Below the pieces are notes generated by a model. It was not told the origin of the DNA. It ran no database searches and saw only the letters and a program-made list of their open reading frames with translations. A program made the position numbers and the translations under genes. From a virus, in the IMG/VR virus record IMGVR_UViG_3300031576_000030, positions 10,969 through 74,968 of that record: 64,000 nt of DNA; one strand, written 5' to 3'. Of the stretch, positions 3,231-58,800 are shown piece by piece (within the stretch, counting starts at the first letter, position 1; every line of letters starts with the position of its first letter).

Positions 3231-3734
3231 CTAGTAGGCTCCTACGTCGGACAACCACCCCCATCGTTTGCCGTTTTCGATGGCATGGATGGTGGCCCAG
3301 CCAACGTTATAGATATTGGCAATTTCGTGTTTAGACTTCCCGGCCCGTAGAAGATGTCATACATTGAGGACTTCATCTTCTTTCAACTTTGAACTGGGAT
3401 TTTGGCTACCCGGAGAGGAGCCACCCCTAGAACGCTCTTTTGTGACTCGGTCAGCGATATTATCGGCTTGGCTCCCTGAGAATAGATGGAACGGGTTGCA
3501 ACAAGAAGGATTGTCGCAACGATGAAGGATCGACTCTCCGGGTGCTATGTCTCCAAAAGTCAGTCTCCAGACAACCCGATGTGCCCTCCAAGATTTTCCT
3601 TCCCAGTTGAATATGCCATATCCGTCTCGACTTGTATAACCTTGCCAAAGCCAACAATCGTTAACGCCTCTCCTATCAACCTTTTCCCAGAACCTCAGGT
3701 CAACCGGATTGATTTTGTATTGGTTGCCTCTCAT
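3231..3734 (-). pseudogene. HNH homing endonuclease whose C-terminal HTH is cut off by an in-frame TGA (3357-3359)
   Basis: RFWEKVD..CWLWQG..GYG..RAHRVVW..LHRCDNPSCCNPFHL..DN; after the TGA the frame continues HLLRAGKSKHEIANIYNVGWATIHAIENGKRWGW to a TAG at 3231. Confidence 0.8.
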
Positions 3735-3736
3735 CG

Positions 3737-4117
3737 CTATTCCCCTAACTCCCCGGTGAGATACTCGCCCTTCCAATCAGCGATACCTTCGCGTACACCA
3801 TAGTCCATGATGTCCACGTCGGCCATCCCAATCTTCCGTTCACGGTGTACCTGGCGCTCATAGCGGAGCGAGGCCCAGCGCAACAGCCATTCGATCACTT
3901 TCTTTTCCAGAGCAAACGCCGTAAACCATCGCCGACGCCATCGGAACGAGGCCAGCGCCTCGAACGGCCAGATGCGCACCTGGTACTCCTCGTCTGACTT
4001 ACCCCGCGCCCTGGCCTCGGAGAGCGCTCGGCCCACATGCAGGATAGACAGAGGAGGCGACTTCTGCGGGCTGCTGACGCTGGGCACCGGGTAGATCAAG
4101 AGAACCCGTGTCGTCAT
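3737..4117 (-). CDS. Short protein with a B12-binding radical-SAM-like N-terminus; possible internally deleted relic
   Basis: MTTRVLLIYPVP...PPLSILHVGRAL resembles the start of cobalamin-dependent radical SAM proteins, but 126 aa and no CxxxCxxC. Confidence 0.5.
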   Translation of the reverse strand: MTTRVLLIYPVPSVSSPQKSPPLSILHVGRALSEARARGKSDEEYQVRIWPFEALASFRWRRRWFTAFALEKKVIEWLLRWASLRYERQVHRERKIGMADVDIMDYGVREGIADWKGEYLTGELGE

Positions 4118-4359
4118 TCTTTGTCCTCGCCCGGCGTGATAGGCAAGTAGGCGAACTCTGTCACCAACGACAATTCATCCCACGCATCGTGGAACTGTTC
4201 CTGGAAACAGTAGGCGGTCAGGGCCTCATGCTCGCGCCGTCGCAATTGGATGGCGCTTATGATAATGCCCTGTGTCTTGGCGTCGCGGATAGCATCCAGG
4301 ATCGCCGTCGCCACTTGCTGGCCGACTCTCTCCTGGTCTAGTTCGTCAATTGTCTGCAT
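4114..4359 (-). CDS. Hypothetical protein
   Basis: ORF coupled to neighbours (start MQTIDELD). Confidence 0.55.
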   Translation of the reverse strand: MQTIDELDQERVGQQVATAILDAIRDAKTQGIIISAIQLRRREHEALTAYCFQEQFHDAWDELSLVTEFAYLPITPGEDKE

Positions 4360-40269: not shown

Positions 40270-41895
40270 ATGAATATAGGATTCAATCTACCCCAGGACA
40301 TGATCACCCAGACCTTTGCCATCCTCGCCAAGCGGCGGACGGGCAAGACCTACACCGCCTCGGTCATGGCCGAGGAGATGGTCAAAGCCGAATTGCCCTT
40401 CGTCGTGCTAGACCCGACCGGGGCCTGGTGGGGGCTACGGGCCTCCGCCGATGGCAAGCGCGAGGGCCTGCCGGTGATCGTCATCGGCGGCGCGCACGGC
40501 GACCTGCCGCTGGAGGCGCATTCGGGCAGGCTGATCGCGGAGATTGTGGTCGAGCATCCAGGCTGGTACGTGATCGATCTATCGCTGAGCCAATCCAACG
40601 CGGAGCAAGACCGCTTCGCCCTGGACTTCGCCGAACGGATATATCGCCTGAAAGAAAAGCACCGTGAGCCGCTGCACCTGTTCGTCGACGAGGCCGACTC
40701 CTTTGCCCCGCAGCGGCCTATCCGAGGCCAGGAACGCATGTTGGGAGCCTACGAGTCCCTGGTGCGTCGCGGCGGCATCCGGGGGGTGGGCGTGACGCTG
40801 ATCACCCAACGGCCCGCCGTGCTCAACAAGAACGTACTCACCCAGACCGAGGTGCTGATCGTCTTGCAGATCACCGCGCCGCAAGACCAAAAGGCCATCG
40901 ACGACTGGGTGCGTCAGAACGGCACAAAAGAGGAACGAGATACTCTGATGGCCTCGCTTGCCTCGCTCAAGCAGGGCGAGGCCTGGGTCTGGTCGCCGTC
41001 CTGGTTGGAGAAGTTCGAGCGGGTGAGGATCCGCCAGCGCGAGACGTTCAACTCCTCGGCCACCCCCAAGGCCGGGGAGCGGGCGGTCGTGCCGCAGCGC
41101 TTCGCCGCAGTCGACTTGGAGAAATTGCGCGCGCGAATCTTGGGTACCACGCAGCGCGTCCAGCAGGAAGACCCTCAGACGCTGCGCGAGGAGATCGCCG
41201 CCTTACGCCGACAATTGAACGCCCGCCCGACCGAGGTGCGCGAGGTGATTAAAGAGGTCTTCCCCGACGCGCTGCGCTCCAGCCTATCCGCCGCCCTGGA
41301 AGATGTCCATACCTCGCTGGAGGGTGTTGGCACGTCTCTGTCCCATGTGGAGGCGCTGCTCCAGCCGGTAGAGGCCATCCAGCCTGCCGATCACAAGACG
41401 GTCAAGGGGCTGCGGCGCGGGGGATGGCAGATACTCGCCACGCTGTCGGCTTACAACAGCCTGACCCCCGCCCAACTTGCCACGCTGTCGTACATGGCGA
41501 AGTCAGGCACGTTCCAGACCTACCTCAGCCAATTGCGCCAGTTCGGGTTCATCGAGTCAAATGGCAGGGGCCTGGCGATCACCGAACGTGGACTATTCCA
41601 TTACACGGAGAATCGCGAGCCGCTGCTGCCGCCACCGGCCACCACACAGGAGATCGTCGCGGCCTGGTCGGTCAAACTCCGCAGCGGTGCGCGGCGCATG
41701 CTGGCGGCCTTGATACCCCATTATCCGCGCGGTATCAGCCGGGGTACCCTGGCGAGCGAGGCGGGCTTGCAGAAGTCGGGTACGTTCCAGACGTACCTGT
41801 CCACCTTGAAGCGCCTGGGTCTGGCCGAGACCGGAATCAACACCGTCAAGGCTAGTCCCACCTTGTTCTTGAATCGAGGAGGCAACCATGAGTGA
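40270..41895 (+). CDS. HerA/FtsK-superfamily (DUF87-like) ATPase with two C-terminal winged-HTH-like repeats
   Basis: AKRRTGKT, VLDPTG, LFVDEAD, ITQRPA; KSGTFQTYLS twice. Confidence 0.8.
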   Translation: MNIGFNLPQDMITQTFAILAKRRTGKTYTASVMAEEMVKAELPFVVLDPTGAWWGLRASADGKREGLPVIVIGGAHGDLPLEAHSGRLIAEIVVEHPGWYVIDLSLSQSNAEQDRFALDFAERIYRLKEKHREPLHLFVDEADSFAPQRPIRGQERMLGAYESLVRRGGIRGVGVTLITQRPAVLNKNVLTQTEVLIVLQITAPQDQKAIDDWVRQNGTKEERDTLMASLASLKQGEAWVWSPSWLEKFERVRIRQRETFNSSATPKAGERAVVPQRFAAVDLEKLRARILGTTQRVQQEDPQTLREEIAALRRQLNARPTEVREVIKEVFPDALRSSLSAALEDVHTSLEGVGTSLSHVEALLQPVEAIQPADHKTVKGLRRGGWQILATLSAYNSLTPAQLATLSYMAKSGTFQTYLSQLRQFGFIESNGRGLAITERGLFHYTENREPLLPPPATTQEIVAAWSVKLRSGARRMLAALIPHYPRGISRGTLASEAGLQKSGTFQTYLSTLKRLGLAETGINTVKASPTLFLNRGGNHE

Positions 41896-42463: not shown

Positions 42464-42900
42464 AACTCACCCGGAACCTGATTCATTCGATTTTGCGCCA
42501 CGCGGGTTTCCCCAGAGCGACGGCAAAGACTCTGCCATCGGGCTGGCAGAGATGGTCGAAGGGATACATCACCTTGAAGATTGTTCCCGACCCCATCAAC
42601 GATCACGTTGCGTTACAGTATTCCACCGATCCGAGCGACAAAGCCATGCTGGAGCGCTACCGGGAGGCGCTCGCCCGACGCAATGTTGAGTCGTTCATCC
42701 AGACCTATTATCCGAAAACGCCTTGGGAGTACCATACGCTTTACATCAAGATGGAATCGGATGTTGAAGGCGGTAGACACGAGTGCCCGACGTGCAAGCA
42801 GGTGTTCTCCACACGCCGAGGCCTATCCGCCCACCACACTTGGAAGCACCTCCCACCCTTTCAGGAATCTAATCAGGATAGGCCAGGGCACGACAAATGA
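42460..42900 (+). CDS. Hypothetical protein with C2H2 zinc finger
   Basis: CPTCKQVFSTRRGLSAHHTWKH. Confidence 0.65.
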   Translation: MKLTRNLIHSILRHAGFPRATAKTLPSGWQRWSKGYITLKIVPDPINDHVALQYSTDPSDKAMLERYREALARRNVESFIQTYYPKTPWEYHTLYIKMESDVEGGRHECPTCKQVFSTRRGLSAHHTWKHLPPFQESNQDRPGHDK

Positions 42901-43116
42901 CACCCTACCTCACCGGTCTATACTGGCTCACCATCCGGCCCGAATACGAGCCGACTCGTCCGGTTCGCGCTCACAAGAAAGGCATCACCCCATGATGGAT
43001 GCCTATGCCCTGGGGTTTTTCCACGGGGTGTTGGGTTGCCTGGCATCCTACGTGATCGCCACCGTCGTGACGGGCTTGGCCTGGTTCGAGTGGATGAAAC
43101 ACAAAGCGTCGGTGAG

Positions 43117-43533
43117 ATGAAGTTCCCTCCCGATGCGCGGTTATCCGCCTGGCGCATCCGCGTCCCACCGCTGGCGAGCGATGACAGTTATGGCAACAAC
43201 GGCGCATTCCTGGTGCCGGGGCCGCATCGGGTGGCGCTGCAGGTGATCGCTTCCGATGGAATGGGGTGGGATCACGTCAGCGTCAGCCCTCAAGCGCCGC
43301 GAACCCCTTTATGGGACGAGATGGACTTCGTGAAGTCCATCTTTTGGGACGACAAAGAGGCCGTCATGCAACTGCACCCGCCCCGATCTACTTGGGTAAA
43401 TAACCATCCGTATGTGTTGCACCTATGGCGACCTCTGGGCGGGATAGAGATTCCGCTGCCGCCTGAGAACCTGGTGGGGATCAAAGCGGCGGGTACATTC
43501 GACGTCAAGTTCAGTGCAACACGATCATCTTAA
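43117..43533 (+). CDS. Conserved phage hypothetical protein
   Basis: GNNGAF, ASDGMGWDHVSVS, WDEMDFVKSIFW, LHLWRP. Confidence 0.75.
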   Translation: MKFPPDARLSAWRIRVPPLASDDSYGNNGAFLVPGPHRVALQVIASDGMGWDHVSVSPQAPRTPLWDEMDFVKSIFWDDKEAVMQLHPPRSTWVNNHPYVLHLWRPLGGIEIPLPPENLVGIKAAGTFDVKFSATRSS

Positions 43534-43543
43534 GGAGGTGGAC

Positions 43544-44176
43544 ATGAACAATATCACCACGACCCAGTACGACCTGCACATCACCCTGACCGCGCCGCTG
43601 CTGGGGACACAGCCGCCCAAAGACGTGGCGACCAAGTACCTAACCAGCCAGGTTCTCGACGCAGCCCGCTTGCCATCGAATGTAGTAGAGGTAGGCGACG
43701 ACACCGTGGCCGCCGCAGACGAGTTGGAGACTCTGCCCGAACTGCTGGAGCGCGGCACGACCGCCTTCCACACCCTGGACGGTCGGCCCATCCTGTACAA
43801 CTACCACGTCAAGGGCTTTCTCAAGGAGGCGGGTTCGGTCTTCAACGGCCTGCGCGGAGTCAAGAACCTGCGCTCCAAGATCGACTCGTTGGTGTTCGTG
43901 ACGCCCCGACGCATCGAGTTGTACCACGACCAGCCGATGGGGATTCTGGAACGGCCTTTGCGGGCCATGACCGCCCAAGGCCCGCGCACAGCGCTCGCCC
44001 GTTCCGAGATGTTGCCGGAGGGGACACGCTTTGACTGCCTCTTGGAAGTCTACGACGGCCCGATCAGCCATCTACTGCTGACCGACCTCCTCAGTTATGG
44101 AGAAAAAAAGGGGCTGGGTCAGTGGCGGAACTCTTCCGTCTACGGCACGTTTTCCTTCGTCCTCGTCAAGCGATAG
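43544..44176 (+). CDS. Stand-alone RAMP-superfamily (Cas7-like, Vipr-like) protein
   Basis: AAGGAGG RBS; ITLTAPLLGT first strand, HVKGFLKEA helix, SEMLPEGTRF, C-terminal G-rich loop YGEKKGLGQWRNSSVYGTF. Confidence 0.75.
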   Translation: MNNITTTQYDLHITLTAPLLGTQPPKDVATKYLTSQVLDAARLPSNVVEVGDDTVAAADELETLPELLERGTTAFHTLDGRPILYNYHVKGFLKEAGSVFNGLRGVKNLRSKIDSLVFVTPRRIELYHDQPMGILERPLRAMTAQGPRTALARSEMLPEGTRFDCLLEVYDGPISHLLLTDLLSYGEKKGLGQWRNSSVYGTFSFVLVKR

Positions 44177-44464
44177 CGAGGTATCGTATCGTGAGTGCCC
44201 GGTGTTGCATTGCGTTGCATGGGCATGGTGAGGTGGAGTGAAGCGTTGCTCTGGCAGGGTGAAGCAGGGTGTAGTCCGGCATAGCAACCGCAGAGTATGG
44301 ACGAGTGTTGCGAACGCGATGTGGAGTAAGGCGCCGTTTAGCGCAGGTATAGTTCGGTGTTTCGCAGCACCAGCGAGGTTGTGCCAAGTGGAGCGAAGGC
44401 GCAGTACGGTTTGGCAGCGCGAGGGCAAAGCCAGGTGATGTACCGCTCAGGTATAGCGGGGTGG
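44175..44464 (+). ncRNA. Periodic NGY-NN pentamer array, candidate guide RNA array
   Basis: 56 pentamers (54 match NGY-NN) in 11 blocks separated by single extra bases, starting at the RAMP stop codon. Confidence 0.75.
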
Positions 44465-44631
44465 GAATCACCGGCATACTGACCATAACCTTTGTGGTCT
44501 TGAAGTTAGCCCACGTGATTGATTGGTCGTGGGTGTGGGTACTTGCCCCCGCGTGGGGGACGTGCTTGCTGATACCCTTGTTCGTGGCGACTTTCATCGC
44601 CTTGACCTTCCTGTTGGAACTGCGGAAGTGA
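44461..44631 (+). CDS. 56-aa phage membrane protein
   Basis: GILTITFVVLKLAHVIDWSWVWVLAPAW, a familiar phage transmembrane motif; GTG start. Confidence 0.7.
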   Translation: MGITGILTITFVVLKLAHVIDWSWVWVLAPAWGTCLLIPLFVATFIALTFLLELRK

Positions 44632-44639
44632 AACACAGT

Positions 44640-44668
44640 CGGGCCGGGAGTAAGTCATTCCCGGCCCG
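44640..44668. terminator. Hairpin between convergent transcription units
   Basis: CGGGCCGGGA-loop-TCCCGGCCCG 10-bp stem. Confidence 0.65.
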
Positions 44669-55895: not shown

Positions 55896-58800
55896 TCACA
55901 CCACCAGGTTCACCGCCAGGGTGGAGGTGCGGCGCAACTGCGAGAGTTGGGTGCGCTGAACCTGCTGCAGGGCGGTGGCGATGACCCGCCCGTCCAGCAT
56001 GATCACGTTGCGGTTGGCGATGTTCACGTTCACTCCGATCATGTCGCTGCGTGCGCCCGCTCCACCCGGGGTCATCGGTCGCCGGGATTGGTAGTATGGA
56101 TCGTCGGTGAAGGCGCGCATGAAGGCCGCCGAACTCATGGCCGGGGCGGGCTGCGCCCGGGGACGCGGCTGGTAGTACTGATCGCGGGTGAAGGCTTGTT
56201 GGAAGGCCGCGGCGCTCATCCACAAACCCGCAGCACTGCCCAACACCACCCCCGCGTTGCGCAGGGTCTGGGCCGCCGTCATGTGAGCGCCCGCCGCCCC
56301 GCTCAGGGCCGCGCCCGACACCGATACGCCATCTCCCCCCGCCTCGGCGGTGTACTGTCCCAAGCGGTCGCGCGGCACGAGTCCCTCCTGCAGGGCGGTG
56401 AAGGGGATGAGCACCTCGGCGTTGGCGGGCACGTTGAACACGCCCGCGATCTGCTTCTGCACCCGCGTCAACTCCTCCATCGCGTAGCGCAGCGCATCCT
56501 GCGAGGTGACGATGGGCCGGAAACTTTTTGTCGCGTTGTCCCAAAAGAGGAAGGATTGTCGCTCCTCGTAGGGCTGCCGCCCCGGTTCCGCCAATTCCAC
56601 CCGCCGCTGCCACAGGCCAACCTGTCGGGTGAGTTGTCCCAAGGATACGTTCTCTGGCAGGTCGCGGAAGCCGCCGAAGCGACTGACCGTATCGGCGGCG
56701 CGGTTGAAGGCCAGGTTCAGCGCTTCGGCGGAACCGCGCAGGCGGATGAAGCGGTCGTTCGTCTCGTCGTACACCTGGAAGGTCAGGATCTGCTCGTAGT
56801 CCTGCCGACCCGGCTCCAACCGTTCCACACGCCGCTGCTGGACGTCGACCGCCAGTTGCAGGGCGGCGCGGCTGGTGGGCAACCCCTGCGGCAGGTCGCG
56901 GAAGCCGCCGAAACGGTTGGCGCTGGCGCTGGCCTGATCCAATGCCAGCGCGACCGCCTGGGCCGGGCCGACGATCTCCGTCAAGGCTCCCGTCAGGGTG
57001 TCGATGAATACGAAGCGTTCGGGCTTGAGCGCCTCGGGGTCGATGCCTTCGATGCCCGCCAGCACGTCGGCCAGGCGGTTGACGCGGCGCTGAATGTTCT
57101 GCGTGTTGAAGTCTTCCGGCAGGGCGCGGATGCCTCCGATGGGTAGGGACGGTTCGGGAATAGTGAAGGGGACTTGACGGTAGTTGGGTGGTCGTTGACG
57201 CATACCCGCCGTTTGCGCACCCTCGTTCAATCCTAGAAGCCACTGGGCGAAAGCCGCCTCCGCGATTCGCTCGGCGTCCCGCCGCGCCTGGCCGGAAAGA
57301 CGATAAATGTCTCCGAGGGCTCCAGTCCCCGCCGCTTGATTCATTTGCGCGATGACCTCTGGCGGTGCCTGAAATACCGGAGGTGGCAATTGCGCCTGTT
57401 CGCCCTCACGGATACGCTGCCGGAAAAATTCCTCGCTCAGGGGCATAATCCCGCGCGGGCGAAGTTCTGCCTGAAACCCACTCGCCCGCTCGAACTCCTC
57501 CACGCGCTGGAGTTGCTCTTGGGGTGATAGACCGGCGAACAGATCCATCCCCAGGCGGGTCGTCGAGGCAATTCTCAGCCGAGAGGTCAGCCCCTCGATG
57601 CCCCGTCCCAAGGTATCAAAGAACTGCTCAACGCCGCCGGTGTTAGACCAGACCGCGATAAACGCCTGGGCCTCGGTCGTCAGGATGCGCAGCGATGTGC
57701 CGATGGTGTTGCCCACCTCGCCAAACAGCCGCTGCCAGCCGCCCGCCTCGACGCTCGATTCGCGTAGGGCCTGGTTGAAGGCGCGCAAGACGACCGCCAT
57801 GTCCTGCATGTCGCGTCGGGCTTGCAGAGAGCCGCCGGTGATGAGTTGGAAGAAGCGCGCGGCGGTCTCGATGTCGCCCGACACCGCCAACTGCTGCGCG
57901 ATCTGGGCGATCTGCGGGATGCCCTCGCGCGGCGTCTCAGCCGTCACGCCGAAGCCCCGCAGTTCGCGCAATCGCTCCGGCTGCTGGAACAGGAAGGCCA
58001 ACCGCGCCAGGCGGCCCGCCGTGACCTCCGGCGCGGTTTCGGCGGCGGTCGAGGCCTCGGCAATCGCCAACGCCGCCTGCTCTGCCGTCACGCCCAGTTG
58101 CTGGTACAGGGCCACCCCGGCTTGGATGGCGTCGAACGTCTGCTCAATGTCCAGTCCCGTCTCCGCGTAGATGGCGGCCACCGTGTCCATCACCGCCACA
58201 TGCTCCAAGCCCGCCGCCGTAGCCCGCAGTTCGGTCTGGACGAGTTCGCGCAGTACGTTGTCGAACGATGCACCGCTGTCGCCCGCCTGCCCGAACACCA
58301 AAGAGACCTGCTGCGCGTTGCGCACCATCTCCGGCGTGGCGTCCAGACGCGCGGCCAAGACTCCGCCCGCCAAGGCTTCGCGCGGCGCGACGCCGAAGGC
58401 TGCCGCTTCGACCGCACCGGCCAACAGGCCCGGTCGCTGGGCCGCCGCCGCGCCGCCCTGGATGGCCGCCAGGCGCGCCGAGGCATCGGCCAGGGCCGTC
58501 ACGTCTTGTGAGGCCTCGCTGATGAAACCGTAGGCGATGCGCAAGGTACCCAGGATGAGGATCGTCTGCCCGATCCAGAACAGGTGGCGGATCCACACGT
58601 TGCTCATCAGATTCACGCCGCCGGAGAGTTGCGTGATCTGCTGCTGCAGCGCCTGGACTTGGGTTGCAGCCTGCTCAACCTGTTGCGCGGAGATCGCCGG
58701 TTGGCCCGCCTGCGGTTGGAAATATCCTGTCCGCAATCCTCCCAATTGTGCCCCGGCCTGGGCCAGTTGCTGCTGTAAGAACTGTTGCTGCAAGTAGGGG

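What the first reader, a model, noticed from the sequence alone, without database searches (positions are those of the whole stretch)
44175..44464. Single-base insertions cut the array into 26/31/36-nt units with GC-NNNN-GY junctions
Seen: the period-5 register slips by exactly +1 ten times (44195, 44221, 44252, 44288, 44314, 44345, 44371, 44397, 44423, 44449), giving blocks of 4,5,6,7,5,6,5,5,5,5,3 pentamers. The pentamer before the slip is NGC in 9 of 10 cases, the one after is NGC in 8 of 10, and the second pentamer of a block is usually NGT. Junctions therefore read GC-NNNN-GC and can form tiny tetraloop hairpins (TTGC-TCTG-GCAG, TTGC-GAAC-GCGA). Slips are always +1, which random decay would not predict. 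Inference: these are boundaries or processing sites between about 10 separate guides of 5-7 subunits each.
Basis: partly seen in the sequence, partly recalled or inferred. Interest (0 to 1): 0.85.

Follow-up and report, generated by a model that had tools for sequence, protein, structure and literature searches.

The report
Staggered VIPR guide-RNA array punctuation
The odd five-base repeat with an extra base every 26-36 bases is the guide-RNA array of a phage VIPR system (a CRISPR-related RNA-guided DNA silencer published in 2026), and the extra bases mark where one short guide ends and the next begins, so this is a new example of a known kind.

Summary
Window 44165-44465 (+) is the only GY-phased pentamer array in the window. 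It has 47 pentamers, 11 hexamers and no tetramers, and all ten reported slips are confirmed. The gene just upstream (43544-44176) folds as a minimal Cas7-like RAMP with the Vipr-type G-loop. The locus is therefore a VIPR system (bioRxiv 10.64898/2026.04.26.720920) with the YNNNG repeat variant.

The +1 punctuation is shared by the whole family. In 60 distinct arrays beside homologous genes I counted 4835 pentamers, 972 hexamers and 62 tetramers. Hexamers recur every 4-7 units. Their consensus is GCAAnG|GCA, so the extra base is the first G of a full GGY that opens each block.

Related arrays differ by 5-nt multiples or by whole blocks (21/26/31/36/62 nt). This fits the preprint's 'staggered vrRNA arrays', which it did not confirm experimentally.

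I got no RNA-end data. The tetraloop-hairpin idea is not supported. Targets and the reading code remain unresolved.

This scan has noted VIPR systems in at least 61 other genomes, several of them as staggered arrays. Verdict: new member of a known kind, moderate interest.

The parts
42897..42924 (+). sigma-70-like promoter match upstream of the operon (consensus match only)
   Evidence: ATGACA-16-TATACT, 10 of 12; no promoter-like site between here and the array
43036..43533 (+). upstream neighbour gene, DUF7694 / phrog_7839, overlapping the vipr start region; not a conserved partner
   Evidence: tblastn finds no homologue in the 80 related loci
43544..44176 (+). vipr gene: 210-aa minimal RAMP (Cas7-like) with a G-loop, a beta-hairpin thumb and a helical insertion
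   Evidence: AF2 pLDDT 80; Foldseek PDB top hits type VII Cas7, Csm3 and Cas7-11 at E about 1e-6; BFVD top hit is a phage 'RAMP superfamily protein' at E 6.5e-16; conserved GxGQWRN G-loop aligns with GVGDWRP of SUSP1 Vipr
44165..44465 (+). vrRNA array: 58 GY-NNN units (47 pentamers, 11 hexamers) on the vipr strand; it overlaps the vipr stop codon and the start of the next ORF
44191..44196 (+). hexamer junction 1 (GTGAGT), ends a 4-unit block
44217..44222 (+). hexamer junction 2 (GCATGG), ends a 5-unit block
44248..44253 (+). hexamer junction 3 (GCTCTG), ends a 6-unit block
44284..44289 (+). hexamer junction 4 (GCAACC), ends a 7-unit block
44310..44315 (+). hexamer junction 5 (GCGAAC), ends a 5-unit block
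44341..44346 (+). hexamer junction 6 (GCGCAG), ends a 6-unit block
44367..44372 (+). hexamer junction 7 (GCACCA), ends a 5-unit block
44393..44398 (+). hexamer junction 8 (GCGAAG), ends a 5-unit block
44419..44424 (+). hexamer junction 9 (GCGAGG), ends a 5-unit block
44445..44450 (+). hexamer junction 10 (GCTCAG), ends a 5-unit block
44461..44631 (+). 56-aa small membrane-protein ORF (phrog_1374); its GTG start lies inside the last array units; not part of the VIPR system as far as tested
44641..44667 (.). GC-rich 9-bp hairpin between convergent genes; likely end of the transcript (inference; no T-run, so the scan did not call it)
   Evidence: read; one search found no canonical terminator

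Best explanation
The stretch is the guide-RNA (vrRNA) array of a phage VIPR system. It is co-transcribed with its Vipr gene, and one Vipr protomer binds each 5-nt unit through the conserved G-Y. In this Vipr family the first G of the canonical GGY is dispensable inside a block. A full GGY appears only at the start of each block, and its first G is the 'extra' base that makes the preceding unit look like a hexamer. The consensus is ...GCAAn-G|GCAnn.... The 6-nt step throws the next G-Y out of the 5-nt register. I infer that this ends one Vipr filament segment and that a new one nucleates on the GGC. In this reading the array is parsed into abutting short guides of 4-7 units (21-36 nt), which is the 'staggered vrRNA array' architecture of the VIPR preprint. 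What is shown here: the RAMP fold, the array grammar, its conservation across the family, and block-wise and unit-wise evolution. What is inferred: that blocks act as separate guides, that the register break stops the filament, and whether the RNA is actually cut at junctions (about 35-40% likely) or stays a beads-on-a-string transcript.
For: Only one such array exists in the window, directly after a Cas7-fold gene. Most of the 80 IMG/VR loci that hold a homologue have the same kind of array next to the gene, usually on the gene's strand. The 60 distinct arrays contain 4835 pentamers, 972 hexamers and 62 tetramers. Hexamer spacing is 4:93, 5:246, 6:243, 7:123, against 81/68/56/47 expected if hexamers fell at random, and spacings of 1-3 units are strongly depleted. 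In the junction logo (n=778) the extra base is G in 90% of cases, the next G is 100%, the following Y is C in 78%, and the last unit is GCAA-rich. The nearest relatives end their blocks in GCAAAG, GCAATG or GCAACG. Between related arrays the junction base changes at 5%, against 13-15% for the N positions. Indel lengths peak at 5, 10, 15 and 20 nt and at 21, 26, 31, 36 and 62 nt, and a 21-nt block is inserted exactly at a junction. Block maps show shared blocks in conserved order beside unique ones, and block duplications. The G-loop residue that reads G1 in SUSP1 Vipr (D177, paper) is an invariant Q here, while the residues for G2 and Y3 (W, R) are kept. That matches the loss of G1 inside blocks. 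[quoted passage not shown] Where blocks had perfect matches under the published rule, the neighbouring blocks did not continue on the adjacent target DNA.
Against: I have no RNA data for this or any related array, and the preprint did not confirm staggered arrays by sRNA-seq. A block of 4-7 units, whose first and last units are semi-conserved, specifies only about 6-14 bases under the two-base rule. That is too few for unique targeting, whereas published vrRNAs have 9-16 repeats. No convincing natural target was found under any code, so the functional unit is not demonstrated. In this window the junction base is G in only 6 of 10 cases and the GCAA motif is weak. Sequence homology to the reference Vipr of SUSP1 is limited to a 37-column G-loop alignment (E 7e-4, probability 27%).
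Confidence: 0.6

Rival explanations
1. The array is one long guide with periodic slack. It is a single very long vrRNA coated by one continuous Vipr filament, and the extra nucleotide about once per helical turn is a bulge that relieves path-length or topological strain. It is not a boundary.
For: Block size (mode 5-6 units) equals the published subunits per turn of the Vipr filament: six in the binary complex and five in the target-bound complex, with about 25 nt of vrRNA per turn. No promoter, tail or hairpin separates the blocks.
Against: Subunits of a helical filament are equivalent, so no periodic insertion is needed. Block size varies from 4 to 7 and up to 10. The junction carries conserved bases (GCAAnG|GCA) that would impose an impossible periodic constraint on natural targets if they paired. 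Related arrays gain and lose whole blocks. Neighbouring blocks did not extend candidate matches. The 13-unit and longer windows scanned across junctions gave no hits above control.
Confidence: 0.15
2. The blocks are real modules but are read with a different code, for example three target bases per unit (the positions after Y plus the degenerate G1 position), read contiguously. That would give 12-21 specified bases per block, enough for stand-alone guides.
For: All three N positions vary at equal rates (14, 13 and 15%). The G1-reading residue is replaced. Notes from other agents of this scan propose a three-base reading in other VIPR clades (leads only). The pair p5-p3' shows some genomic-dinucleotide-like bias (r 0.48).
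Against: In five related complete phage genomes only the published rule (the two bases after Y, one base skipped) exceeded permuted controls: 15 of 70 blocks against 8.6 +/- 2.5. The three-base reading did not: 6 against 7.6 +/- 1.9. The pair p3-p4 matches genomic dinucleotide bias far better (r 0.93) than p4-p5 (0.57). Stop-triplet depletion is explained by general TA depletion, since TGA is not depleted. Exact IMG/VR scans of the three-base decodes gave 0 hits and 1 chance-level hit.
Confidence: 0.15
3. It is a DNA-level element. The mean period of 5.18 bp is half a B-DNA turn, so the tract could be a phased protein-binding or curvature element, or a decaying slippage product with no RNA role.
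For: The mean unit length (301 nt over 58 units = 5.19) is close to 10.4/2. The G-signal peaks at period 5.15-5.2.
Against: The tract sits beside a Cas7-fold gene in this window and in most of the 80 related loci. It is strand-specific wherever Y includes T. It shows hypervariable N positions with conserved G-Y, as in experimentally validated vrRNAs. Decay would give -1 slips as often as +1 slips.
Confidence: 0.04

Closest known systems
VIPR systems with 'staggered vrRNA arrays' and YNNNG repeats (bioRxiv 10.64898/2026.04.26.720920, text, methods and legend of fig. S18)
   Same: A solitary minimal RAMP gene in a phage. An adjacent tandem pentamer array with conserved G-Y and hypervariable N positions. 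Guides that abut without tails, promoters or ribozymes, with boundaries offset by one nucleotide so that the end of one guide marks the start of the next.
   Different: I could read only the legend, not the figure, so identity of the architecture is inferred. The preprint gives no junction consensus, block-size statistics or evolutionary data, and it did not confirm this architecture by sRNA-seq. Added here: the GCAAnG|GCA junction, the 4-7-unit block distribution, and unit- and block-sized indels.
Type II VIPR of Escherichia phage SUSP1 and the P. fulva prophage (same preprint; structures in 10.64898/2026.04.26.720927)
   Same: Same protein architecture (RRM core, G-loop with W-R, thumb, helical insertion) and a 5-nt unit with one protomer per unit. 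The SUSP1 vrRNAs read directly from the phage genome are strict GGY-NN pentamers.
   Different: SUSP1 vrRNAs have 9-16 units in a strict period of 5. Each has its own upstream element and a conserved 3' pseudoknot tail, and the locus includes a vap gene. Here G1 is not conserved inside blocks (D177 is replaced by Q), blocks have 4-7 units, there is no tail, there is a single transcript, and no accessory gene is conserved among 80 loci. Arrays in this family reach 200 units.
Class 1 CRISPR Cas7 backbone on crRNA (types I, III, VII)
   Same: Same fold family (Foldseek hits to type VII Cas7, Csm3 and Cas7-11). A filament with one subunit per fixed RNA step and a thumb that flips bases.
   Different: The step is 6 nt, the guides are contiguous, the arrays are repeat-spacer units of 60-79 nt, and further cas genes are present. 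None of these is found here.
TRAP-binding sites of Bacillus trp leaders: (G/U)AG triplets with 2-3-nt spacers (from my own knowledge, not tested)
   Same: A short conserved motif repeated every 5 nt, with occasional 6-nt spacing, read by an oligomeric RNA-binding protein.
   Different: There are 11 repeats for one ring and no variable guide positions. The protein has a different fold, and no TRAP-like gene is present here.

Membership tests
VIPR system (Vipr + vrRNA) | Vipr protein: a minimal RAMP with RRM core, glycine-rich loop and thumb | tested here: met
   AF2 model pLDDT 80, with a beta-hairpin at 133-157 and a C-terminal G-loop. Foldseek gives Cas7/Csm3/Cas7-11 at E about 1e-6. The BFVD top hit is a phage RAMP protein at E 6.5e-16. 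The motif GxGQWRNGGxGRF is conserved.
VIPR system (Vipr + vrRNA) | Recognisable sequence relationship to a reference Vipr (SUSP1) | tested here: inconclusive
   hhalign of the family alignment against SUSP1 Vipr gives only a 37-column G-loop match, E 7e-4, probability 27%. The preprint itself says RAMPs share little sequence similarity.
VIPR system (Vipr + vrRNA) | Adjacent tandem pentanucleotide array with a conserved GGY or related consensus (YNNNG etc.) and hypervariable N positions | tested here: met
   Substitution rates are G 3.7%, Y 10% and N positions 13-15%.
VIPR system (Vipr + vrRNA) | Non-CRISPR, minimal locus in a virus or provirus | tested here: met
   No CRISPR or other Rfam family in the window. 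No tandem repeats by TRF. No cas domains in the neighbours, and phage genes lie around the locus. G000 is a virus record of 74,968 nt.
VIPR system (Vipr + vrRNA) | Accessory vap gene next to vipr | tested here: not met
   None of the neighbouring ORFs has a homologue in the 80 related loci, except one HerA-like hit. The preprint says loci 'typically' have a vap, so this is not strictly defining.
VIPR system (Vipr + vrRNA) | vrRNA is expressed and bound by Vipr | not testable with these tools
VIPR system (Vipr + vrRNA) | Targets read by the NN / one-base-skip rule | tested here: inconclusive
   Within five related phage genomes the rule gave 15 of 70 blocks with perfect matches, against 8.6 +/- 2.5 in permutations. 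The other rules stayed at control level. The hits include the carrier genome and some near-duplicate blocks. IMG/VR scans were at chance level.
Staggered vrRNA array (fig. S18 of the preprint) | Abutting guides whose boundaries are offset by one nucleotide, without tails or ribozymes | tested here: met
   11 hexamers and no tetramers here; 972 against 62 in the family. The shared G at the junction fits the '1 nt overlapping positions' wording. No hammerhead or other Rfam hit.
Staggered vrRNA array (fig. S18 of the preprint) | Individual blocks are processed into separate vrRNAs | not testable with these tools
   No RNA data. The preprint did not show it either.
CRISPR array | Direct repeats of about 24-48 nt separated by unique spacers, with cas genes nearby | tested here: not met

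The most novel reading that the evidence does not exclude
The +1 step may be a purely 'frame-coded' punctuation mark. Because this Vipr family has lost the G1 pocket (D to Q), filaments would nucleate only on the full GGC at the start of a block and stop where the 6-nt step breaks the 5-nt register. One protein would then parse a single long transcript into dozens of short guide filaments with no nuclease, hairpin or tail. Specificity would come from several short blocks acting together.
Probability: 0.3. Interest if true: 0.6.

Novelty: new member of a known kind. Interest (0 to 1): 0.35.

Why it matters
VIPR is a very recent discovery, and its 'staggered' arrays are the least characterised architecture. 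They appear in one sentence and one supplementary legend, without RNA data. This window and its roughly 60 related arrays give a quantitative grammar for them: a GGC start, a GCAAn end, 4-7 units per block, and always a +1 step. The data also show that arrays evolve by unit and by block. That turns a vague picture into testable predictions about how a filament-forming RAMP starts and stops on RNA. It also sharpens an open problem: how guides this short can be specific. For genome annotation, the grammar helps in calling such arrays, which TRF and Rfam both miss.

Tried and rejected
1. Rfam search of the whole window and TRF: nothing found.

2. Junction hairpins: no enrichment over shuffled flanks, and the array RNA is not more structured than shuffles. 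Rejected.

3. Protein-coding or codon reading of the three N positions: TAG and TAA are depleted, but so are GTA and CTA, and TGA is not. This is TA depletion, not a stop-codon signal.

4. Target search in 0.57 Mb of related loci plus the 75-kb genome under 20 position/skip models: hits equal controls.

5. Exact IMG/VR scans:
- Three-base decode of the 7-unit block: 0 hits.
- Three-base decode of the 6-unit block: 1 hit, which is chance level, and neighbouring blocks do not match.
- Two 9-unit blocks from L010 and L016 under the published rule: 2 and 9 hits.
- Seven of the 9 are one conserved sequence, the RBS plus start codon of a gene in related marine phages. This comes to about 3 independent hits, near the chance expectation. 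The other blocks of that array do not converge on those phages. Not claimed as a target.

6. Five complete related phage genomes: a modest excess of hits for the published rule only. It is weakened by near-duplicate blocks and by hits in the carrier genome, and there is no extension to adjacent blocks.

7. Self-targeting in the window's own genome: none beyond chance.

8. A conserved accessory gene: none found.

9. Genome-contig scan with the single protein: no relatives found.

11. A DNA half-turn periodicity element and a TRAP-like binding site were considered and rejected (see Rival explanations and Closest known systems).

Full report
**What is in the sequence.**
- The region 44165-44465 on the + strand consists of units that begin with G followed by a pyrimidine.
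- I parsed it with a dynamic-programming scheme that penalised 4-mers and 6-mers equally. It gives 58 units: 47 pentamers, 11 hexamers and no tetramers.
- With a scoring that drifts negative on random DNA, this is the only such array on either strand of the 64-kb window.
An eleventh hexamer (44170-44175) overlaps the stop codon of the upstream gene.
- Block sizes are 4,5,6,7,5,6,5,5,5,5 units plus a 3-unit end, as reported.
- Autocorrelation peaks at lags 5, 10, 21, 26, 31 and 36.
- The period-5.15 to 5.2 G signal is the strongest in the window.
- TRF and Rfam see nothing.

**Context.**
- The array starts on the stop codon of a 210-aa ORF (43544-44176) that has no Pfam hit.
- More than 1,400 homologues of about 195 aa exist, and none carries a functional name.
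- An AlphaFold model built from 26 homologues (pLDDT 80) matches Cas7-type RAMPs in the PDB: type VII Cas7, Csm3 and Cas7-11, at E about 1e-6.
- In BFVD the top match is a phage 'RAMP superfamily protein' (E 6.5e-16).
- The C-terminus carries a conserved glycine-rich loop, GxGQWRNGGxGRF.
- The neighbours are phage genes: a HerA/terminase-like ATPase, DUF7694 and an M23 peptidase.
- The 'genome' is a 74,968-nt virus record.
- There is a promoter-like site upstream of the preceding gene but none before the array. The array is therefore probably co-transcribed with the RAMP gene. That is an inference.

**Identification.**
- VIPR systems consist of a minimal RAMP (Vipr) and vrRNAs made of GGY/NN pentamers. 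One protomer binds per repeat, and the NN bases pair with DNA while every third target base is skipped.
- The first preprint lists alternative repeats (NNNGG, YNNNG, NNNNG).
- It states that only the ribozyme-interspersed and single-guide architectures were confirmed by sRNA-seq.
- The window's array is the YNNNG variant.
- I read the SUSP1 locus directly. Its vrRNAs are strict GGY-NN pentamers, and its Vipr G-loop reads GVGDWRP.
- In the structure paper D177 reads G1, W178 stacks on G2 and R179 holds Y3. In the family studied here W and R are invariant, but the D is an invariant Q.
- That fits the loss of G1 conservation inside blocks. It is a correlation, not a test.

**The punctuation is family-wide.**
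- A profile scan of IMG/VR returned 80 loci that encode homologues. Most carry an adjacent array with the same grammar.
- In 60 distinct arrays I counted 4835 pentamers, 972 hexamers, 62 tetramers and 15 other units.
- The distance from one hexamer to the next is sharply peaked: 93, 246, 243 and 123 cases at 4, 5, 6 and 7 units. A geometric expectation gives 81, 68, 56 and 47. Spacings of 1-3 units and of more than 9 units are strongly depleted.
- The junction logo from 778 junctions reads G-C-A-A-n-G | G-C-A-n-n. The extra base is G in 90% of cases, the following G in 100%, and Y is C in 73-78% at the two flanking units against about 50% elsewhere.
- The nearest relatives end their blocks in GCAAAG, GCAATG or GCAACG.
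- So the 'insertion' is best described as the first G of a full GGY that opens each block, preceded by a semi-conserved GCAAn closing unit.
- In the window the motif is weaker. The extra base is G in 6 of 10 junctions.

**Evolution of blocks.**
- In a clade of seven related phages the arrays share blocks in conserved order beside unique ones.
- One pairwise alignment shows 5-nt and 10-nt indels, a 21-nt block inserted exactly at a junction, and substitutions mostly at N positions.
- Over 23 related pairs (not independent of one another), indel lengths peak at 5, 10, 15 and 20 nt and at 21, 26, 31, 36 and 62 nt.
- Substitution rates are 3.7% at G, 10% at Y, 13-15% at the three N positions, and 5% at the junction base.
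- Both the unit and the block therefore behave as modules.

**Hairpins.**
- The GC-NNNN-GC junction gives 2 bp by construction.
- Stems of 4 bp or more occur at 106 of 974 junctions, against 100.6 +/- 8.7 when the 5' flanks are shuffled.
- The whole array folds no better than shuffled sequence (z = +0.32).

**Which bases are read, and what is targeted.**
- The pair of bases right after Y shows dinucleotide odds that track genomic neighbour bias (r 0.93). The next pair is weaker (0.57), and the pair spanning G-Y gives 0.48.
- Triplet statistics show TA depletion, not stop-codon avoidance.
- Scans of related loci gave no hits above controls.
- In five complete related phage genomes only the published rule exceeded unit-permuted controls: 15 of 70 blocks with perfect matches, against 8.6 +/- 2.5, with 0 of 40 permutations reaching 15. 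The other four codes were at control level.
- That excess is weakened by near-duplicate blocks and by hits in the carrier's own genome.
- Adjacent blocks do not continue on the adjacent DNA.
- Exact IMG/VR scans were at chance level.
- The window's own genome shows no self-match beyond chance.
- Targets therefore remain unknown, and the code is only weakly indicated to be the published one.

**Interpretation.**
- With about 0.9 confidence this is a VIPR vrRNA array.
- With about 0.6 confidence the hexamers are boundaries between short guide modules, that is, the staggered architecture.
- I propose that the 6-nt step works by breaking the 5-nt register, so that one filament ends and the next nucleates on the GGC.
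- Whether the RNA is cut there is open.
- The main rival is a continuous filament with one bulge per helical turn. It draws on the coincidence of block size with the published 5-6 subunits per turn. It is disfavoured by the variable block size, the conserved junction bases and the block-wise evolution.
- The main difficulty for separate guides is their low information content.

**Limits.**
- I could not see fig. S18 itself.
- No RNA data could be obtained.
- This scan has already noted VIPR systems in at least 61 other genomes, several of them as staggered arrays. I used those notes as leads only.

Noticed in passing
L047, L050, L053-L057 (arrays at about 3670-4350 of each locus): In this clade the blocks nearest the vipr gene are mostly unique to each phage, while the distal blocks are shared in conserved order. 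This polarity resembles leader-end turnover in CRISPR arrays. It rests on one clade only, and in L061/L066 both ends differ.
   Followed up: partly
L101-L106, L108 (e.g. L101:911-936): A 9-unit block of the L016 array matches all 18 read positions, under the published skip rule, of one conserved 26-nt sequence in seven related phage contigs. The sequence covers the ribosome-binding site and start codon of a gene beginning MSSNITTSFVEQYSSNV. The number of independent hits (about 3) is near chance, and other blocks of that array do not converge there.
   Followed up: partly
G001 (L083-L085) positions 56633 and 46291, and homologous sites in G002-G005: Two blocks of the G001 array match, under the published rule, conserved coding motifs in the carrier's own genome and in its relatives. 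Between genomes the differences fall at the skipped third-codon positions. This could be chance (10-12 read bases) or self-regulation.
   Followed up: partly
window 43700-43760 (residues about 46-71 of the Vipr-like protein): An invariant acidic motif (D-E-x-x-T-L, within ...ADELETLPE...) lies in a low-confidence loop of the model (pLDDT below 50), between the helical insertion and the core. Its conservation across the family suggests a partner-binding or regulatory segment.
   Followed up: no
window 44461-44631: A 56-aa membrane-protein ORF (phrog_1374, E 8e-15) starts inside the last array units. It is not conserved next to vipr in other loci.
   Followed up: partly
window 40270-41895: A 541-aa HerA/FtsK-type ATPase that also matches a PHROG annotated as terminase large subunit. 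Its only homologue near a vipr gene is in L038 (35% identity).
   Followed up: no
L029-L033, L048, L060, L076, L079: In several relatives the array lies upstream of vipr instead of downstream, or on both sides (L029, L031, L048). Arrays made almost only of GC units score equally on both strands, so their strand cannot be read from sequence.
   Followed up: no
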